From a virus (Duplodnaviria; Heunggongvirae; Uroviricota; Caudoviricetes): a stretch of DNA of 19,014 nt. The stretch lies in the IMG/VR virus record IMGVR_UViG_2645727905_000013, positions 1-19,014 of that record; one strand, 5' to 3'. A program made the position numbers and the translations under genes. The notes beneath the pieces are model-generated. The model ran no database searches. It saw only the letters and a program-made list of their open reading frames with translations, and was not told the origin of the DNA. This document shows, piece after piece, positions 4,726-10,483 of the stretch (the stretch's first letter is position 1; the number at the start of each line of letters is the position of its first letter).

Positions 4726-4754
4726 TATTATTCGTTTTTTACTGTAGGAGTTAA
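4726..4754 (-). promoter_or_regulatory. Candidate sigma70 late promoter (pR'-like) reading toward the lysis genes
   Basis: Minus strand: TTAACT (-35), 17-nt spacer, ATAATA (-10). Located about 75-95 nt upstream of the hairpin terminator and about 250 nt upstream of the holin. Confidence 0.3.
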
Positions 4755-4759
4755 CAGGT
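4740..4759. promoter_or_regulatory. LexA (SOS) box-like motif TACTGT-N8-ACAG
   Basis: Sequence tACTGTaggagttaACAGgt has the conserved CTGT and ACAG arms at canonical 8-nt spacing, with an imperfect central region. It sits 10 nt upstream of the KAP NTPase ATG and overlaps the opposite-strand promoter candidate. Confidence 0.3.
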
Positions 4760-4766
4760 TTATATT

Positions 4767-5609
4767 ATGTTAGATACACTATCGTTCACTGAACGTGACG
4801 AGTTCCAACGAAGAAACATCGCTGAAAATATCATCAAGTTGCTAAAACCAGAGGCAGACATTTCACCACTGGTAATAGATGGCGCATGGGGAACAGGGAA
4901 ATCAGAATTTAGTATCAAACTGAAAAATCTCATTATTGAGCAAGAACCCGAATCTAAAGTTGTTTATATTGATGCCTTTAAAGGGGATCATGCAGAATCT
5001 CCATTACTTCTCATAACCTCTGCAATTGCCAGCATTTTGCCTGAGGAAGAAAAACAACACTTCATTAAGAGGTCTCTTCCTGCAATTCGATTTGGTTTAA
5101 AAACTGTACTAAAAGCTGGTGCAGGTTGGTTTTTACGACAGGAGGCTAGTGAAGTTGCCGAAGAATTCCAAGATGCGATGAAGAAAGCAAGCAATGCAGC
5201 AATAGATGGGACTATTGAAAGTTTGCTTGAAGACCATATGGAATCAGAGAAAAACATAAATTCACTTAAATCTTGCATCGAAAGTATTTCAGAAAATCAA
5301 AAGATAGTAATTATAATTGATGAATTAGATCGATGTAAGCCGAGTTTTTCAACAAATGTCATTGAAACAATAAAACACATTTTTGACATCAATAATGTCT
5401 TTTTTATTTTAGTTACAAACACAGAACAATTAAGAGCATCGATAAATCATATTTATGGTTATAGTATTAACTCACAAAAGTATCTTGACAAGTTTATAAA
5501 ATATACCATCACGCTTCCAGATACATGTTTGATAAATGGTCACGACGTATGTAAAGCCTCTGTTATATATTGGAATTACCTTGTAGAAAAAAACAAGATC
5601 ATTAAATGA
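4767..5609 (+). CDS. KAP-family P-loop NTPase, N-terminal part (Walker A and B present); gene appears frameshifted
   Basis: Walker A VIDGAWGTGKSEF (GxWGxGKS type) and Walker B IVIIIDELDRC (DELDRC) are the KAP NTPase signatures. AT-rich composition. Encoded on the opposite strand between Q and the lysis genes. Confidence 0.7.
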   Translation: MLDTLSFTERDEFQRRNIAENIIKLLKPEADISPLVIDGAWGTGKSEFSIKLKNLIIEQEPESKVVYIDAFKGDHAESPLLLITSAIASILPEEEKQHFIKRSLPAIRFGLKTVLKAGAGWFLRQEASEVAEEFQDAMKKASNAAIDGTIESLLEDHMESEKNINSLKSCIESISENQKIVIIIDELDRCKPSFSTNVIETIKHIFDINNVFFILVTNTEQLRASINHIYGYSINSQKYLDKFIKYTITLPDTCLINGHDVCKASVIYWNYLVEKNKIIK

Positions 5610-5757: not shown

Positions 5758-6099
5758 ATGATCTTTGTCGTAGCTGTCTTCATACATTGCTTTGGTGACA
5801 AGGAAAAACTAAAACACGAAATTACCGCTGAATCTATATCTTATTTAGCAGACCTGCTTAAAATAAAAGAGATACCTTATTCTTATGAGATGAGTTCGAA
5901 AATCCCTAAAATATCAATTGTATTCTTTGGAATAATTAAAGACAGTATTACTCTTAATGAGCGATTTGCTCCTAAAAGTGATGAAGAACTAAAAAGATTC
6001 ACCAAAGTTTATACTGATTATGACCACCTAAATTTTTGGAGTACTACACCCAGAGAGTTATTGATAAAATATATCAATCAAATGTCATTCATTCAGTAA
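5758..6099 (+). CDS. Probable C-terminal continuation of the KAP NTPase gene in the +1 frame
   Basis: This frame is open from 5587 (just after a TAG at 5584-5586) through 6099, overlapping the end of the upstream ORF. Deleting one A from the A7 run (5587-5593) fuses the two ORFs into about 443 aa. The first ATG is only at 5758. Confidence 0.4.
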   Translation: MIFVVAVFIHCFGDKEKLKHEITAESISYLADLLKIKEIPYSYEMSSKIPKISIVFFGIIKDSITLNERFAPKSDEELKRFTKVYTDYDHLNFWSTTPRELLIKYINQMSFIQ

Positions 6100-6512: not shown

Positions 6513-7508
6513 TCAGGCCAGTACGCCAATTGCCAGCGCACGATCGATAAAACGAAATATCAGCTCCAGCTGAGAGCCATACTTCTCTTCAAATGCCACG
6601 GTATCCGCATGCAGCTCGTCGTGATGCTTTCTGCACAAAGGCAACACAAAGAGGTCATGCGCTTTTGTACCCATTCCACCCTGACCGTGGCCTATCAGAT
6701 GGTGGGGATCATCAGCAGGCTTTCCACAACATGCACACGGCTGTGTCTTAACCCAGCGCGTGTACTTTTCATTAACCCAGCGGCGGCTTTTTGGGCGTAA
6801 CATAAAAGACTCCGGCGACTCCGGATCCACTTTCAGCGCCAGCACCTTTTTCGCTTTATCCAGGATGATGCTGGTGGCAGGAACCGAAGGCACAAGGTCA
6901 CTTTCCCGGGTGACAGACGGCACAACAGGTTTCGGTAATCTCAGCGCCTTACGGGCTACGCTTTCAGGTAAGGCATCCGCCAGGTCATTACGAATCAGCC
7001 ACCAGCACAGTTCCGGCATTGTCACGGCATGGTTATCATCAAAATCGAGATCCCGACGGACTACAGACAACACCCAACGGGCACAGTTATCCGTTGCCAT
7101 TGATTCCAGCCGCTCCGTGAACTGATCACGTAACTGATTATCGCAGTGCCAGCACAGACGGATTGCGCCCGGCGCGTGTCGCATTGTGGTCATGTTCTCG
7201 CTGTGCCAGTCGGAATGAGGCCACTGGCAGCCTTTTTCACGAAGTAACCAGCTTTCAAGACATTCCACCCCACCAGCACGACGAATCACTGCCTCATTAC
7301 GGAACACGGCCCGAACGGCAGGATCATCCGCCAGCGGTTGTGATGCCGCCGGAACGGCACCACTGGCGAAAGATGAATAACGTTCCGGCTCAGGCTCCAG
7401 CAGGACACGCCCCTGCATAAACAGGGGCATCAGCTCTGAACCTGGCCTGAACAATACGATCCCCATACGCGGGGCAATTTCAGGGGTCAGTAGCGCTCTC
7501 ACGGTCAC
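6513..7508 (-). CDS. DUF968-like phage protein with C-terminal HNH/zinc-finger-like motif (YdfU-like)
   Basis: C-terminus CACCGKPADDPHHLIGHGQGG...CRKHHDELH has an HNH-type Cys/His pattern. It sits immediately upstream of Q, as ydfU does relative to quuQ in the Qin prophage (recalled). Confidence 0.5.
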   Translation of the reverse strand: MTVRALLTPEIAPRMGIVLFRPGSELMPLFMQGRVLLEPEPERYSSFASGAVPAASQPLADDPAVRAVFRNEAVIRRAGGVECLESWLLREKGCQWPHSDWHSENMTTMRHAPGAIRLCWHCDNQLRDQFTERLESMATDNCARWVLSVVRRDLDFDDNHAVTMPELCWWLIRNDLADALPESVARKALRLPKPVVPSVTRESDLVPSVPATSIILDKAKKVLALKVDPESPESFMLRPKSRRWVNEKYTRWVKTQPCACCGKPADDPHHLIGHGQGGMGTKAHDLFVLPLCRKHHDELHADTVAFEEKYGSQLELIFRFIDRALAIGVLA

Positions 7509-7509
7509 C

Positions 7510-8319
7510 TCAATGAACGGTATCGAGCAGCTTTAACAGCTCAGGGAATCGGGATTCGAAGAAATGCGGCTGCGTCTCGCGCGGATTTGCGGGACTGGTG
7601 ATGTTCTTGCCGAACATGCAGCCTTTCGCCGTCAGCGACCAGAATTTTTTGATGTTGTTAATCGCAGTGCGGCTGTATCGTTCACGTTGTTCAACGATCC
7701 CCAGCTTCGCCATCTGGTGATATGCCTGATTAGCTGTCAGGCGGATACCATACTGCTTCAGCAGTGCACTCAGTGACAGCGTGGGGCGGCTTGAGCCATC
7801 AGGCGCGTCAGCAGGAGCATCAATGGCATAGCGCGGTGCCAGATTCGGTAAGCCAACAGCCTCCTGGAGTTTCTGACAGGCACCAAGCACTGAAGAGTTA
7901 GACAGGTTTAACTCCCGGCGCATAAAGTCCAGCAGGATCACGCCAGCCTGCATCTTGTCAGCAGCCTGTCCGGATAATTTTTCCGGTGCGCTGGTTACCA
8001 TATCGAAAGTACGGATCACCTTCAGATGGAATGACGGGCTGATCCACATTGCATAGGCATACACCAGTTCCTTGCAGACATATGTTCCCCGTTCATTTCC
8101 CCCATGAATCACACTCACCGGGTCAACACCCAAATTCTGGGTGTTGGTCAATTCATGAACAAGCTCAACAGTTTGTTGGCTGGAAAGAAACTTTCCCGGC
8201 TCCTTGGTTCTGGCATTTGCACCAGATGCTACTGCTGCGCGATGCAGATCGTTCAGGCTGTAACGCCCATAAGCATCACGACGAACTTCAATACCATCAA
8301 TGACCATCAGATTATTCAT
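7510..8319 (-). CDS. KilA-N domain protein (antirepressor-like)
   Basis: N-terminal MVIDGIEVRRDAYGRYSLNDLHRAA... is typical of the KilA-N domain. Start placed at the ATG at 8317-8319, which has a GAGGAG SD about 8 nt upstream. Confidence 0.65.
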   Translation of the reverse strand: MNNLMVIDGIEVRRDAYGRYSLNDLHRAAVASGANARTKEPGKFLSSQQTVELVHELTNTQNLGVDPVSVIHGGNERGTYVCKELVYAYAMWISPSFHLKVIRTFDMVTSAPEKLSGQAADKMQAGVILLDFMRRELNLSNSSVLGACQKLQEAVGLPNLAPRYAIDAPADAPDGSSRPTLSLSALLKQYGIRLTANQAYHQMAKLGIVEQRERYSRTAINNIKKFWSLTAKGCMFGKNITSPANPRETQPHFFESRFPELLKLLDTVH

Positions 8320-8338
8320 ACTTCGTTTCTCCTCTTGA

Positions 8339-8728
8339 TCAGGCGGCTGCACCCGCCGTTTTCTCGTACTTACTGATAGTGATCTCGACCTTCCCTTCCG
8401 GGATAACCGGTCCCCACTCCACCAGCATTCTTTTCACCTGACTGTCGTCTTCCCACACACCCGCGTGGGTCAGGGCGTCAAACAGCGCCTTGTTATAGTT
8501 GTCCAGATCGCGGATCCGGTTATCCGGAGGAAACAACACGATCTCCACTGAAGCAGGTGCCGACGTTGGTTTTGGCAGACGACGTAACTGCTCAACTATT
8601 GCTGCACACGCTGCGCTCTGGAATTTGCGCCCCGCCGCGCTTATCAGGCTCTTACCTGCAAACGCCCCTTTGTTGGGGTGTCGCCAGTACGTGTTCACGC
8701 TGGGCGGGAAAGGCAGGATCAGCTTCAT
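8339..8728 (-). CDS. rusA: Holliday junction resolvase RusA
   Basis: 129 aa; ...PPSVNTYWRHPNKG...RDLDNYNKALFDALTHAGVWEDDSQV... parallels E. coli RusA (PPSNNRYYRH...[27 protein letters not shown]). Its ATG overlaps the stop of the upstream gene. Confidence 0.8.
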   Translation of the reverse strand: MKLILPFPPSVNTYWRHPNKGAFAGKSLISAAGRKFQSAACAAIVEQLRRLPKPTSAPASVEIVLFPPDNRIRDLDNYNKALFDALTHAGVWEDDSQVKRMLVEWGPVIPEGKVEITISKYEKTAGAAA

Positions 8729-9051
8729 ACTTTCAGGCCCCTCTCATGTAACCAGTGGGCTGCACGCAGCCTGGCGTTTTCCTCACCGGCAAGCAGTGAG
8801 CGGATAATCCCGACCGCCTCGCTGTCGTCGTCCTTCACCGCGGTATGAAGCGTTATCCCCCGGGCCACGCCACGCTTTATCGTGATGACGCCTTTTTTCT
8901 CCAGCGCACGAAGATGCTCCACCGCTGCATTCACCGAACGGTATCCCAGCATGGTTGCCACCTCCTGATTGGTTGGTGGGAAGCCACGTTCTTTCTGATA
9001 AGAAATCAGCATATCCAGCACCTGCTGCTGGCATTGAGTTAACGTCGTCAT
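8725..9051 (-). CDS. LexA N-terminal DNA-binding-domain-only protein (no S24 peptidase domain)
   Basis: MTTLTQCQQQVLDMLISYQKERGFPPTNQEVATMLGYRSVNAAVEHLRALEKKGVITIKRGVARGITL aligns with the LexA N-terminus ([68 protein letters not shown]). It retains an AGE linker motif but ends about 25 aa later. Start (ATG at 9049-9051) overlaps the upstream stop (TAATG). Confidence 0.65.
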   Translation of the reverse strand: MTTLTQCQQQVLDMLISYQKERGFPPTNQEVATMLGYRSVNAAVEHLRALEKKGVITIKRGVARGITLHTAVKDDDSEAVGIIRSLLAGEENARLRAAHWLHERGLKV

Positions 9052-9545
9052 TAAGCCCCCACGTAATTCCCTGACAGATACCACTCTTCACCCGATGCAG
9101 CGCGCTTGCTGCTTTTCCGTAAGCACCGCTCACGACGCGCCAGAAAATTGTTTCGTTCTGGCTGGGAGTGGCTTTCACGGAATGCCGCCATCCACACGGT
9201 TGCAGCACGACGAAATAAGCCCCTGGACTCCAGTTCTTCCGCCTGGCGGGCCAGGCACAAAATCACCCGCGGGTCGTTAGTGCCGACATAGAAATTGCGC
9301 ACAGGTCTGGTTTCACGAACTGGTTGCCGTTCCGCCTCCGGAGATATCTTTGTCTGGCGCGGGAAATGTCTGCGTGTATCCCCTTCACAACGGTGAGCCA
9401 CACGCCCACTCTGACGTAACTTGCTTGCTGACTGCAGAACGCGCTGCCGTGAGTAACCTGCAAAAGCATCAGCAATGTCTCCGGAAGTACCCCCTGGATG
9501 GGCTTCAATGAATTTCTGAACTTCATTCAAAAGACTCATAATCAC
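9051..9545 (-). CDS. Hypothetical regulator; C-terminal region PerC/ANR-like
   Basis: 164-aa ORF whose ATG overlaps the stop of the replication gene (ATGA). C-terminal ARQAEELESRGLFRRAATVWMAAF...RRERCL resembles the recalled PerC/Pch motif GLWRRAAxRW. The N-terminal half may be a winged helix. Confidence 0.4.
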   Translation of the reverse strand: MIMSLLNEVQKFIEAHPGGTSGDIADAFAGYSRQRVLQSASKLRQSGRVAHRCEGDTRRHFPRQTKISPEAERQPVRETRPVRNFYVGTNDPRVILCLARQAEELESRGLFRRAATVWMAAFRESHSQPERNNFLARRERCLRKSSKRAASGEEWYLSGNYVGA

Positions 9546-10483
9546 CCCCTGAATCCTGCCGGGATCTGGCTGTAGTCCACATTGTCGTAACTGGCTTTGA
9601 AGTACGGGTCTTCACGTTTTTCTGTGTGCGTGCTGACGGACGGCGATAAGCGCAGGGAAAGCTCATCCCATTTTTCCCGCAACTTCGACGGGCTGAGCAC
9701 GTTACGGCACCAGAACGGATCGCGGCTGACGCGGCTGTACATCTCGCAGATTTGTTTGTGAGTACGACCATCCTGCACACACATCAGGCGAATTTCGTTT
9801 GCCCAGGCTGTCCAGTTCGGTTCTTTGGGACGAATCACCTCGCCGTCACATTCGGCGGCCTGCTCGTACAGGGCGATGATTTTTTTCCAGAGCCACTGTG
9901 CGCAGGTCAAATCATCCTGCGTTCCCCACTGACGCTTTTTAGGGCTGAATACAACCGCATCAGGATGGCGAGTTAAAAAATCCTGTTCATCCGTCTGCGT
10001 GTCCGGTTGCGAAGCGTCCGGACGAGAAGTTTTTTTATCTGACGGATCATGTTTTGATTTTACTGACGGATCCCCGCCAGATTCTGACGGGTGAAAACCC
10101 GCTTTTTTGCCAGATTTCGACGCATCAAATTTTGACGGGTCAGATTTTGATGCGTCAGATTTTGACGGGTCAGAATCTGACAGTTGAGAAAATGCCGCTG
10201 CCTGAAGCTTCGCAACGTTAAGCTGATAAACATTCGACGCATTGCGGTTACCCTGGCGACGCGCCTTACGCGTTAACCAGCCTTCTGCTTCCAGCCGTGC
10301 GATAGCCGTTCTGACGGTACTCATCCCCGCGCCAATCTGGCGGGCAATGGTTTCAATTGATGGCCAGCACACACCTTCGTCATTACTGAAATCAGCCAGG
10401 CGGGCCATAATTGCCACGCTGGATAACTTCATGCCTGATGCAGCGCAACCATCCCATACATAGCCGGTTAATTTAGTACTCAT
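9542..10483 (-). CDS. Phage replication initiation protein (lambda O-like role), N-terminal wHTH, internal repeat linker
   Basis: N-terminal wHTH-like segment SIETIARQIGAGMSTVRTAIARLEAEGWL. A repetitive linker (SDSDPSKSDASKSDPSKFDASKSG) is encoded by tandem 15-bp DNA repeats. Located downstream of cro and the cII-position genes. Confidence 0.6.
   Translation of the reverse strand: MSTKLTGYVWDGCAASGMKLSSVAIMARLADFSNDEGVCWPSIETIARQIGAGMSTVRTAIARLEAEGWLTRKARRQGNRNASNVYQLNVAKLQAAAFSQLSDSDPSKSDASKSDPSKFDASKSGKKAGFHPSESGGDPSVKSKHDPSDKKTSRPDASQPDTQTDEQDFLTRHPDAVVFSPKKRQWGTQDDLTCAQWLWKKIIALYEQAAECDGEVIRPKEPNWTAWANEIRLMCVQDGRTHKQICEMYSRVSRDPFWCRNVLSPSKLREKWDELSLRLSPSVSTHTEKREDPYFKASYDNVDYSQIPAGFRG
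10038..10185. repeat. Iteron-like tandem direct repeats (candidate replication origin) inside the replication initiator gene
   Basis: Four or more tandem 15-bp units (caaattttgacgggt, cagattttgatgcgt, cagattttgacgggt, cagaatctgacagtt) plus degenerate upstream copies, with an adjacent T-rich tract (agtttttttatc, 10029-10040). Confidence 0.55.

What the first reader, a model, noticed from the sequence alone, without database searches (positions are those of the whole stretch)
8725..9051. Prophage-encoded LexA DNA-binding-domain-only protein
The 108-aa product aligns with the LexA N-terminal winged-helix domain and linker (including an AGE motif at the position of the cleavage site) but has no S24 peptidase domain. 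It therefore looks like an uncleavable LexA mimic, and it is translationally coupled into the early-right operon between the PerC-like ORF and rusA. Such a protein could occupy SOS boxes independently of RecA, or form mixed dimers with host LexA, altering SOS induction or prophage induction.
Basis: partly seen in the sequence, partly recalled or inferred. Interest (0 to 1): 0.65.

Follow-up and report, generated by a model that had tools for sequence, protein, structure and literature searches.

The report
Phage LexA-like DNA-binding protein, no protease
This prophage gene really does encode a small protein with the DNA-binding head of the bacterial SOS repressor LexA but without its self-cleaving domain; it is a common, already annotated but untested phage accessory gene, so whether it mimics LexA remains a plausible guess.

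Summary
Window 8725-9051 (- strand) encodes a 108-aa protein. Residues 1-68 are a LexA-type winged helix (Pfam PF01726, E 2.9e-19; 1.1 A rmsd to DNA-bound E. coli LexA). There is no S24 peptidase domain. The gene overlaps the PerC-like gene upstream (TAATG) and rusA downstream (ATGA), and it is under purifying selection.

The "AGE cleavage motif" lies in the predicted turn of a C-terminal two-helix hairpin and is not conserved in the wider family. Mixed dimers with host LexA are unlikely because the LexA dimerisation domain is absent. Binding to SOS boxes is plausible: N41 and E45 are kept, and artificial LexA-head-plus-dimeriser fusions repress sulA. It is not shown, however. E44 is never kept, recognition positions 42/44/45 vary among relatives, and phage-borne SOS boxes are about as common in relatives that lack the gene.

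New here: the gene is almost always directly upstream of rusA (101 of 103 loci) and co-diverges with it. Rare fusions to the DUF968 nuclease domain also exist.

The gene is annotated in about 40% of complete E. coli genomes and in SfV and Stx phages. I found no functional study. The closest characterised analogue is GIL01 gp6. Verdict: a new member of a known kind, of moderate interest.

The parts
8725..9051 (-). CDS of the 108-aa LexA-N-domain-only protein (called LexN in this report)
   Evidence: 100% identical copies in phages and in IMG/VR contigs; dN/dS 0.10-0.26
8848..9051 (-). residues 1-68: LexA-type winged helix-turn-helix (helices 6-22, 28-35, 40-52; strands 56-58, 66-68)
   Evidence: Pfam PF01726 1-65; model secondary structure; Foldseek 3jso rmsd 1.1 A
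8896..8937 (-). residues 39-52: recognition helix SVNAAVEHLRALEK. S39, N41, A42 and E45 are as in LexA; E44 is replaced by V
   Evidence: alignments; contact residues as listed in PMC3091678, PMC13416735 and 10.1101/2020.07.14.201889
8746..8829 (-). residues 75-102: two conserved amphipathic helices (75-87, 93-102) that replace the S24 domain; inferred dimerisation hairpin
   Evidence: model; conserved I82 I83 L86 L87 A93 A97 W100 L101; dN/dS 0.25-0.48. Dimerisation itself is inferred, not shown
8782..8790 (-). codons for A88-G89-E90, the supposed cleavage-site motif; lies in the predicted inter-helix turn
   Evidence: not conserved in the wider family
9049..9053 (-). TAATG: stop of the PerC-like ORF overlapping the LexN start codon
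8725..8728 (-). ATGA: rusA start codon overlapping the LexN stop codon
   Evidence: the same 4-base overlap in Salmonella, Citrobacter and more distant loci
8339..8728 (-). rusA (Holliday junction resolvase), the near-invariant downstream partner
   Evidence: Pfam RusA 6.1e-15; adjacency in 101 of 103 loci; co-divergence
9051..9545 (-). PerC-like ORF, a variable upstream neighbour
   Evidence: Pfam PerC 2.7e-08; replaced by Dam, a roughly 700-aa methylase or the replication gene in other loci
6513..7508 (-). DUF968/HNH-like gene of the same conserved block; in rare relatives its C-terminal domain is fused to a LexA-type head
   Evidence: Pfam DUF968 3e-80; fusions P0179, P0274, P0275
   Evidence: score 13.6; right half not conserved in L009

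Best explanation
The gene encodes a phage accessory DNA-binding protein descended from LexA. It has a LexA-type winged helix (residues 1-68), a short linker, and a private two-helix hairpin (75-102) in place of the S24 protease/dimerisation domain.

Shown: the fold, the missing catalytic domain, the operon position and purifying selection. Without Ser119/Lys156 the protein cannot self-cleave, so RecA* cannot inactivate it the way it inactivates LexA.

Inferred: the hairpin makes it a homodimer. It is made from the rightward early transcript during lytic growth. As a dimer it binds LexA-box-like palindromes (CTGT-type half-sites) and acts as a RecA-proof repressor. In effect it would be a natural version of the laboratory LexA-head-plus-dimeriser fusions that repress sulA. 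It could then re-silence LexA-controlled promoters, both host SOS genes and LexA-boxed genes of this or co-resident prophages, once host LexA has been destroyed. The exact operator sequence may differ from the canonical SOS box.
For: - Domain and fold.
- S39, N41, A42 and E45 are identical to LexA in this allele, and the Salmonella clade helix differs from LexA only at E44A and K48R. N41 and E45 are described as two key base-contacting residues, and E45K abolishes specific binding (10.1101/2020.07.14.201889).
- The LexA head alone does not repress sulA-lacZ, but fused to any homodimerising protein it does (Dmitrova system as used in PMC7160566). A heterologous dimeriser is therefore sufficient at a natural SOS operator.
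- The C-terminal helices are conserved, amphipathic and under purifying selection.
- Overlapping stop/start codons and the absence of internal promoter- or terminator-like sites place the gene in the early-right operon.
- Canonical SOS boxes are the only CTGT-type palindrome enriched in these loci (locus choice was partly biased).
Against: - No binding data exist, and I found no paper on this protein.
- E44 is never retained in the family (V/A/T/F/L/Y), R28 is lost, and positions 42/44/45 vary among relatives. For example, Citrobacter P0088 at 66% identity reads NTIAGH. The host SOS box is constant across these hosts, so this variation argues for changed or diversifying specificity.
- Strong SOS boxes are about as frequent near related rusA modules that lack the gene: 23 of 71 loci against 34 of 83 loci with it.
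- This window has only one weak, non-conserved box.
- The characterised analogue GIL01 gp6 recognises a different palindrome and activates transcription (PMC6182141).
- Dimerisation and operator spacing are inferred only.
Confidence: 0.4

Rival explanations
1. It is a phage-specific transcription factor of the GIL01 gp6 type. The LexA-derived head has drifted to recognise the phage's own site(s) rather than SOS boxes, and it times phage gene expression as an activator or repressor.
For: gp6 is a truncated LexA homologue (44% identical to its host LexA head) that binds GaCACAnnTGTGaC and activates the late promoter (PMC6182141). Here the divergence from host LexA is similar (43%). E44 is systematically replaced, and positions 42/44/45 vary between related phages, as expected if targets co-evolve with each phage. 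LexA-head-only proteins are widespread in phages.
Against: I found no conserved non-SOS palindrome shared by the loci. The top hits were replication-origin iterons or conserved coding sequence, though this search was shallow. These phages already have a Q antiterminator for late genes. N41 and E45 are conserved in the E. coli and Salmonella clades.
Confidence: 0.3
2. It is a DNA-binding accessory factor for the neighbouring DNA-processing enzymes (RusA resolvase and/or the DUF968 HNH-like protein). It would target or restrain them on phage DNA rather than regulate transcription.
For: rusA lies directly downstream in 101 of 103 short family members, with an ATGA overlap, while the upstream neighbour varies. 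Identities co-diverge (LexN/RusA: 100/99, 66/91, 58/78, 47/75, 45/67). In more distant phages a LexA-head-only gene sits directly before, or two genes before, DUF968. Three clusters at about 79% mutual identity are LexA-head fusions to the DUF968 C-terminal domain.
Against: RusA homologues at 60-80% identity sit in the same module without this gene (F1055, vB_EcoS-716R3, YeP1). RusA is known to work alone (established knowledge). Co-divergence is also what simple block inheritance gives. Deletion-generated fusions of neighbouring genes are common in decaying prophages, and several appear. There is no structural evidence of an interaction.
Confidence: 0.12
3. It interferes with host LexA directly, either by forming mixed dimers or by serving as a trans-cleavable substrate or decoy through its AGE motif.
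For: AGE aligns with LexA A84-G85-E86. Intermolecular LexA cleavage has been reported in vitro (my recollection of Kim and Little 1993; not checked here).
Against: The LexA dimer interface and the RecA*-binding surface are in the missing C-terminal domain. AGE is predicted to lie in a helical turn and is not conserved.
Confidence: 0.03
4. It is a decaying, functionless remnant of a captured lexA gene.
For: It lacks two thirds of LexA, and related phages do without it.
Against: Length and frame are conserved from E. coli to Kosakonia, Buttiauxella and Enterobacter at 42-66% identity. dN/dS is 0.10-0.26, and both halves are constrained. It is present in at least 2169 of 5426 complete E. coli genomes.
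Confidence: 0.03

Closest known systems
E. coli LexA repressor (N-terminal domain; PDB 1lea, 3jso)
   Same: Same winged-helix fold (rmsd 1.1 A; 43-51% identity). S39, N41, A42 and E45 of the recognition helix are kept. Possible vestige of the linker and cleavage-site region up to AGE.
   Different: No S24 domain, so no Ser119/Lys156, no self-cleavage, no RecA* response and no LexA-type dimer interface. E44 is V and R28 is N. An 18-residue extra helix forms a private hairpin. It scores below the NCBIfam lexA cut-off.
GIL01 gp6 (Bacillus thuringiensis tectivirus), a truncated LexA homologue that activates late promoter P3 (PMC6182141)
   Same: A temperate-phage protein consisting mainly of a LexA DNA-binding domain, about 44% identical to its host LexA head, and lacking the protease domain.
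   Different: Different phage type and host; probably an independent capture. gp6 has a known non-SOS operator and activates transcription, whereas neither target nor sign of regulation is known here. The C-terminal hairpin and the rusA linkage were found here and were not compared with gp6.
Laboratory LexA-DBD fusions (Dmitrova LexA-based dimerisation system, as used in PMC7160566)
   Same: A LexA head plus a heterologous dimerising element is enough to repress the sulA operator in vivo. This is the architecture inferred here.
   Different: Those fusions carry the authentic LexA head (1-87) and artificial partners. Here the head is 43% identical to LexA, and dimerisation of the hairpin is only inferred.
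Database family: PHROG 362 'transcriptional repressor'; RefSeq WP_000210164.1 'LexA family transcriptional regulator'; SfV orf42
   Same: This protein is a full-length member (PHROG E 1.4e-59) and is 97-100% identical to annotated copies in SfV, SfII, SfIV, mEp460, cdtI and Stx2a/Stx2c phages.
   Different: Those names are homology-based annotations. I found no experimental test.

Membership tests
LexA repressor (NCBIfam TIGR00498 equivalog; S24 family) | N-terminal LexA-type winged-helix DNA-binding domain | tested here: met
   PF01726 E 2.9e-19, full profile; Foldseek 3jso/1lea rmsd 1.1-1.3 A
LexA repressor (NCBIfam TIGR00498 equivalog; S24 family) | C-terminal S24 peptidase/dimerisation domain with the Ser-Lys dyad | tested here: not met
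   Protein ends at residue 108; no PF00717 hit; alignment to LexA ends by residue 87-91
LexA repressor (NCBIfam TIGR00498 equivalog; S24 family) | Whole-protein score above the curated cut-off | tested here: not met
   70.8 bits against a cut-off of 110.95
LexA repressor (NCBIfam TIGR00498 equivalog; S24 family) | Functional Ala-Gly cleavage site | tested here: inconclusive
   AGE aligns with A84-G85-E86, but it lies in a predicted helix turn and varies (AGK, ANE, VGE; unrelated residues in distant members). Cleavage itself is not testable here
LexA repressor (NCBIfam TIGR00498 equivalog; S24 family) | Binds CTGT-N8-ACAG SOS boxes | not testable with these tools
   Only indirect evidence: 4 of the 5 listed contact residues are kept in this allele; E44 and R28 are not
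Phage LexA-DNA-binding-domain-only proteins (PF01726-only; PHROG 362) | PF01726 as the sole Pfam domain, about 70-150 aa, phage-encoded | tested here: met
GIL01 gp6-type activators | Truncated LexA homologue made mainly of the DNA-binding domain, encoded by a temperate phage | tested here: met
   description of gp6 in PMC6182141
GIL01 gp6-type activators | Direct sequence relationship to gp6 | not tested
GIL01 gp6-type activators | Binds its own palindrome at a late promoter and activates it | not testable with these tools
   No conserved non-SOS palindrome found, but the search was shallow

The most novel reading that the evidence does not exclude
A RecA-proof LexA surrogate, carried by prophages in about 40% of complete E. 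coli genomes (including Stx2a/Stx2c and Shigella serotype-converting phages), re-imposes repression on SOS-box promoters once host LexA has been cleaved. An induced prophage would thereby curb host mutagenesis and toxin functions and keep LexA-controlled rival prophages and defence genes silent. A more radical variant is that it works as the sequence-targeting partner of the RusA/DUF968 DNA-processing block.
Probability: 0.3. Interest if true: 0.7.

Novelty: new member of a known kind. Interest (0 to 1): 0.42.

Why it matters
If the protein does occupy SOS operators independently of RecA, then a very common prophage gene would reshape the SOS response during induction. That response drives mutagenesis, persistence, Shiga-toxin phage induction and cross-talk between prophages. 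The hypothesis is cheap to test with a sulA or recA reporter in a lexA(Def) strain plus a gel shift. If the protein instead has its own target, it would be the first Gram-negative counterpart of GIL01 gp6. The tight rusA linkage and the DUF968 fusions also give a lead into the poorly understood nin-region genes. As it stands, this is an annotated, uncharacterised accessory gene, not a new kind of system.

Tried and rejected
- A profile search of PDB sequences with alignment A2 is discarded, because A2 contained E. coli LexA itself. It was redone cleanly with A1.
- De novo search for shared palindromes (4- and 5-base half-sites, spacers 0-14) in about 15 diverse loci. The top hits were replication-origin iterons (GTCAGAnTCTGAC) and conserved coding sequence. 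No candidate operator emerged.
- Variant half-sites (CTAT, CTCT, CTTT and others) at spacers 2-14 showed no enrichment. Only CTGT-N8-ACAG stood out, and some loci had been chosen after boxes were seen in them.
- Inverted-repeat scan of the window's intergenic regions found nothing relevant.
- Test of association between the gene and phage-borne SOS boxes was negative: 41% of loci with the gene against 32% without. The scoring matrix was built from E. coli SOS boxes recalled from memory, so scores are approximate.
- PADLOC gave no meaningful defence-system hit for the protein.
- The search for related loci with the most diverse alignment failed.
- The afdb50 fold library was unavailable.
- The LexA-DNA structure paper could not be fetched.
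- Five of the eight literature searches looked for functional work on this protein and found none; the other three were for LexA contact residues and the LexA-fusion reporter system.

Full report
WHAT IS THERE

On the minus strand, ATG 9051 to TGA 8727-8725 encodes a 108-aa protein. Its stop codon overlaps the rusA start (ATGA, 8725-8728). Its start overlaps the stop of a PerC-like ORF (TAATG, 9049-9053). A G-rich stretch lies 4 nt upstream of the ATG. In 8200-9700 no promoter-like site was found on either strand, and the five terminator-like hits are all on the non-coding + strand. The gene is therefore internal to a leftward-reading operon.

The wider window and its closest annotated relatives show an SfV/e14-like prophage. 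The gene order is cI-like repressor, cro-like, cII-like, replication gene, PerC-like, (Dam), this gene, RusA, KilA-N, DUF968, Q antiterminator, a cargo gene, then lysis and structural genes.

HOMOLOGY AND FOLD

- Pfam LexA_DNA_bind matches end to end (E 2.9e-19). There is no S24 hit.
- The NCBIfam lexA equivalog aligns only over residues 1-91 and falls below its cut-off.
- PHROG 362 "transcriptional repressor" matches over the full length (E 1.4e-59).
- BLASTP against E. coli LexA gives 43% identity over residues 1-90.
- A profile built from ten homologues hits only LexA chains in the PDB sequence set. One search is void because its profile contained LexA.
- The AlphaFold model (pLDDT 81.5) has helices 6-22, 28-35 and 40-52 and strands 56-58 and 66-68. 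A low-confidence linker (71-75) follows, then two further helices at 75-87 and 93-102.
- Foldseek places the first 68 residues on the DNA-bound LexA N-domain (3jso) at 1.1 A.

THE C-TERMINAL THIRD AND THE "AGE" MOTIF

AGE (88-90) does line up with LexA A84-G85-E86. hhalign carries the alignment to residue 91 with middling confidence. The protein may therefore descend from a lexA gene truncated just after the cleavage region.

Three points argue against a functional cleavage site:
- The model puts AGE in the turn between the two helices.
- Close relatives read AGK, ANE or VGE.
- Family members at 42-52% identity have unrelated residues there (ERE, TRK, SGG, DDQ and others).

What is conserved is an amphipathic pattern: I82, I83, L86, L87, A93, A97, W/Y100, L101. 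dN/dS in this region is 0.25-0.48. I read this as a private dimerisation hairpin. That reading is an inference; I could not model a dimer.

RECOGNITION HELIX

Two papers list LexA's DNA-contact residues as S39, N41, A42, E44 and E45 (PMC3091678, PMC13416735). A third names N41 and E45 as two key base-contacting residues and R28 as a backbone contact, and notes that E45K abolishes specific binding (10.1101/2020.07.14.201889).

- This protein reads S39, N41, A42, V44, E45 and N28.
- The Salmonella clade helix (RSPNAAAEHLRAL) differs from LexA only at E44A and K48R.
- Across the family, S39 is invariant and N41 nearly so.
- Position 44 is never Glu (V/A/T/F/L/Y).
- Positions 42 and 45 vary. Citrobacter P0088, at 66% identity, reads NTIAGH.

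The head could therefore still read a CTGT-like half-site in the E. coli and Salmonella clades. Specificity is probably not identical to LexA, and it is not uniform within the family.

DISTRIBUTION

- The 1.3-kb PerC-LexN-RusA stretch matches 2703 of 5426 complete E. coli genomes, and 2169 of them cover at least 80% of it. It is annotated there as "LexA family transcriptional regulator/protein".
- tblastn finds the protein in 61 phage records. These include SfV (orf42), SfII, SfIV, mEp460, cdtI, and Stx2a and Stx2c phages.
- Homologues at 42-66% identity occur in Citrobacter, Salmonella, Kosakonia, Buttiauxella and Enterobacter prophages.
- LexA-head-only proteins are common among phages in general.
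- Stx-phage surveys merely list the family (PMC8136144). I found no functional study.

NEW CONTEXT OBSERVATIONS

1. Of 103 short family members with readable flanks, 101 have rusA immediately downstream. The upstream neighbour varies: PerC, Dam, a roughly 700-aa methylase or the replication gene.
2. LexN and RusA identities fall together (100/99, 66/91, 58/78, 47/75, 45/67).
3. RusA homologues at 60-80% identity sit in the same module without LexN. LexN is therefore optional.
4. In more distant phages a LexA-head-only gene lies just before, or two genes before, the DUF968 HNH-like gene.
5. Three protein clusters, about 79% identical to each other, are fusions of a LexA head to the DUF968 C-terminal domain.

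These points hint at a link with the DNA-processing block. Block inheritance and deletion fusions in decaying prophages could also explain them.

SOS BOXES

I scored loci with a matrix built from E. coli boxes recalled from memory, so scores are approximate. Strong boxes occur within about 6 kb of the gene in 49 of 102 loci, in three places:
- the 5' end of an N6/N4 methyltransferase gene downstream of Q;
- inside the cI-like repressor gene;
- in a few loci, the rusA/KilA-N intergenic region.

After dereplication, 34 of 83 loci with LexN have a strong box, against 23 of 71 related loci without LexN. There is no real association. The window's own site at 4740-4759 scores 13.6, and its right half reads ATAG in a strain where the downstream gene is intact. 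Searches for any other shared palindrome found only origin iterons and conserved coding sequence.

MECHANISM

The best-supported reading, at about 0.4, is a RecA-insensitive LexA-type repressor that dimerises through its own hairpin and binds LexA-box-like sites during lytic growth.

This architecture is known to work at an SOS operator. In the LexA-based dimerisation assay the LexA head alone does not repress sulA-lacZ, but fusions to homodimerising proteins do (PMC7160566).

The main rival, at about 0.3, is a gp6-like factor with its own target. GIL01 gp6 is a truncated LexA homologue that binds a non-SOS palindrome and activates the late promoter (PMC6182141). The variable recognition positions favour this rival.

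A role as accessory to RusA/DUF968 gets about 0.12. Mixed dimers or trans-cleavage get about 0.03, and a dead relic about 0.03.

VERDICT

The gene is an already annotated, very common, experimentally untouched member of the phage LexA-head-only proteins. It is a new member of a known kind, of moderate interest, with a cheap decisive experiment available.

Noticed in passing
window 4767-5609 and 5758-6099 (+): The cargo gene between Q and the holin is a KAP-family NTPase matching PADLOC candidate defence family PDC-S20 (E 9.5e-143), with weaker hits to PifA and QatA. In this window it is split into two ORFs covering profile positions 4-281 and 337-449. A related strain has an intact 443-aa gene (L009 19474-20805).
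   Followed up: partly
L014 2330-2349, L019 3094-3113, L010 836-855 and about 25 other loci: A near-consensus SOS box (for example TACTGTTTTTATATACAGTA) lies inside the coding region of the cI-like repressor gene (HTH + S24), about 70 codons in. It is seen in E. coli loci and in a divergent relative. Similar boxes at comparable offsets occur in loci lacking the LexA-like gene. The function is unexplained; an internal or antisense promoter is possible.
   Followed up: partly
L001 6839-6858; L002 12310-12329; 22 loci in all: A strong SOS box (TACTGTAAAAATAAACAGTG) sits about 10 nt inside the 5' end of the N6/N4 DNA methyltransferase gene located between Q and the lysis genes. This suggests LexA control of that cargo gene.
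   Followed up: partly
L071 974-993; L091 6765-6784; also L088, L090: In a few prophages a strong SOS box lies in a roughly 150-nt gap between rusA and the KilA-N gene. This suggests that the KilA-N (antirepressor-like) gene has its own LexA-controlled promoter there. In this window the two genes abut and no box is present.
   Followed up: partly
L299 5001-5723 (P0179); also P0274, P0275: Natural fusions of a LexA-type winged helix to the C-terminal HNH-like domain of DUF968, sitting just upstream of Q. The L299 prophage also carries a recA-like gene, split into two ORFs.
   Followed up: partly
proteins P0153, P0177, P0185 and others: Proteins with two LexA DNA-binding domains in tandem (about 160-220 aa) exist in the metagenomic library. 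They may be single-chain pseudo-dimers.
   Followed up: no
window 10111-10174 and about 10180 (inside the replication gene 9542-10483): There are 15-nt tandem repeats (4.3 copies) and a GTCAGATTCTGAC palindrome, conserved in distant relatives. These are probably replication-origin iterons inside the initiator gene.
   Followed up: partly
window 9051-9545 (-): The PerC-like ORF also gives a sub-threshold match to the ANR family of negative regulators (NF033650; 24.2 bits against a cut-off of 32).
   Followed up: no
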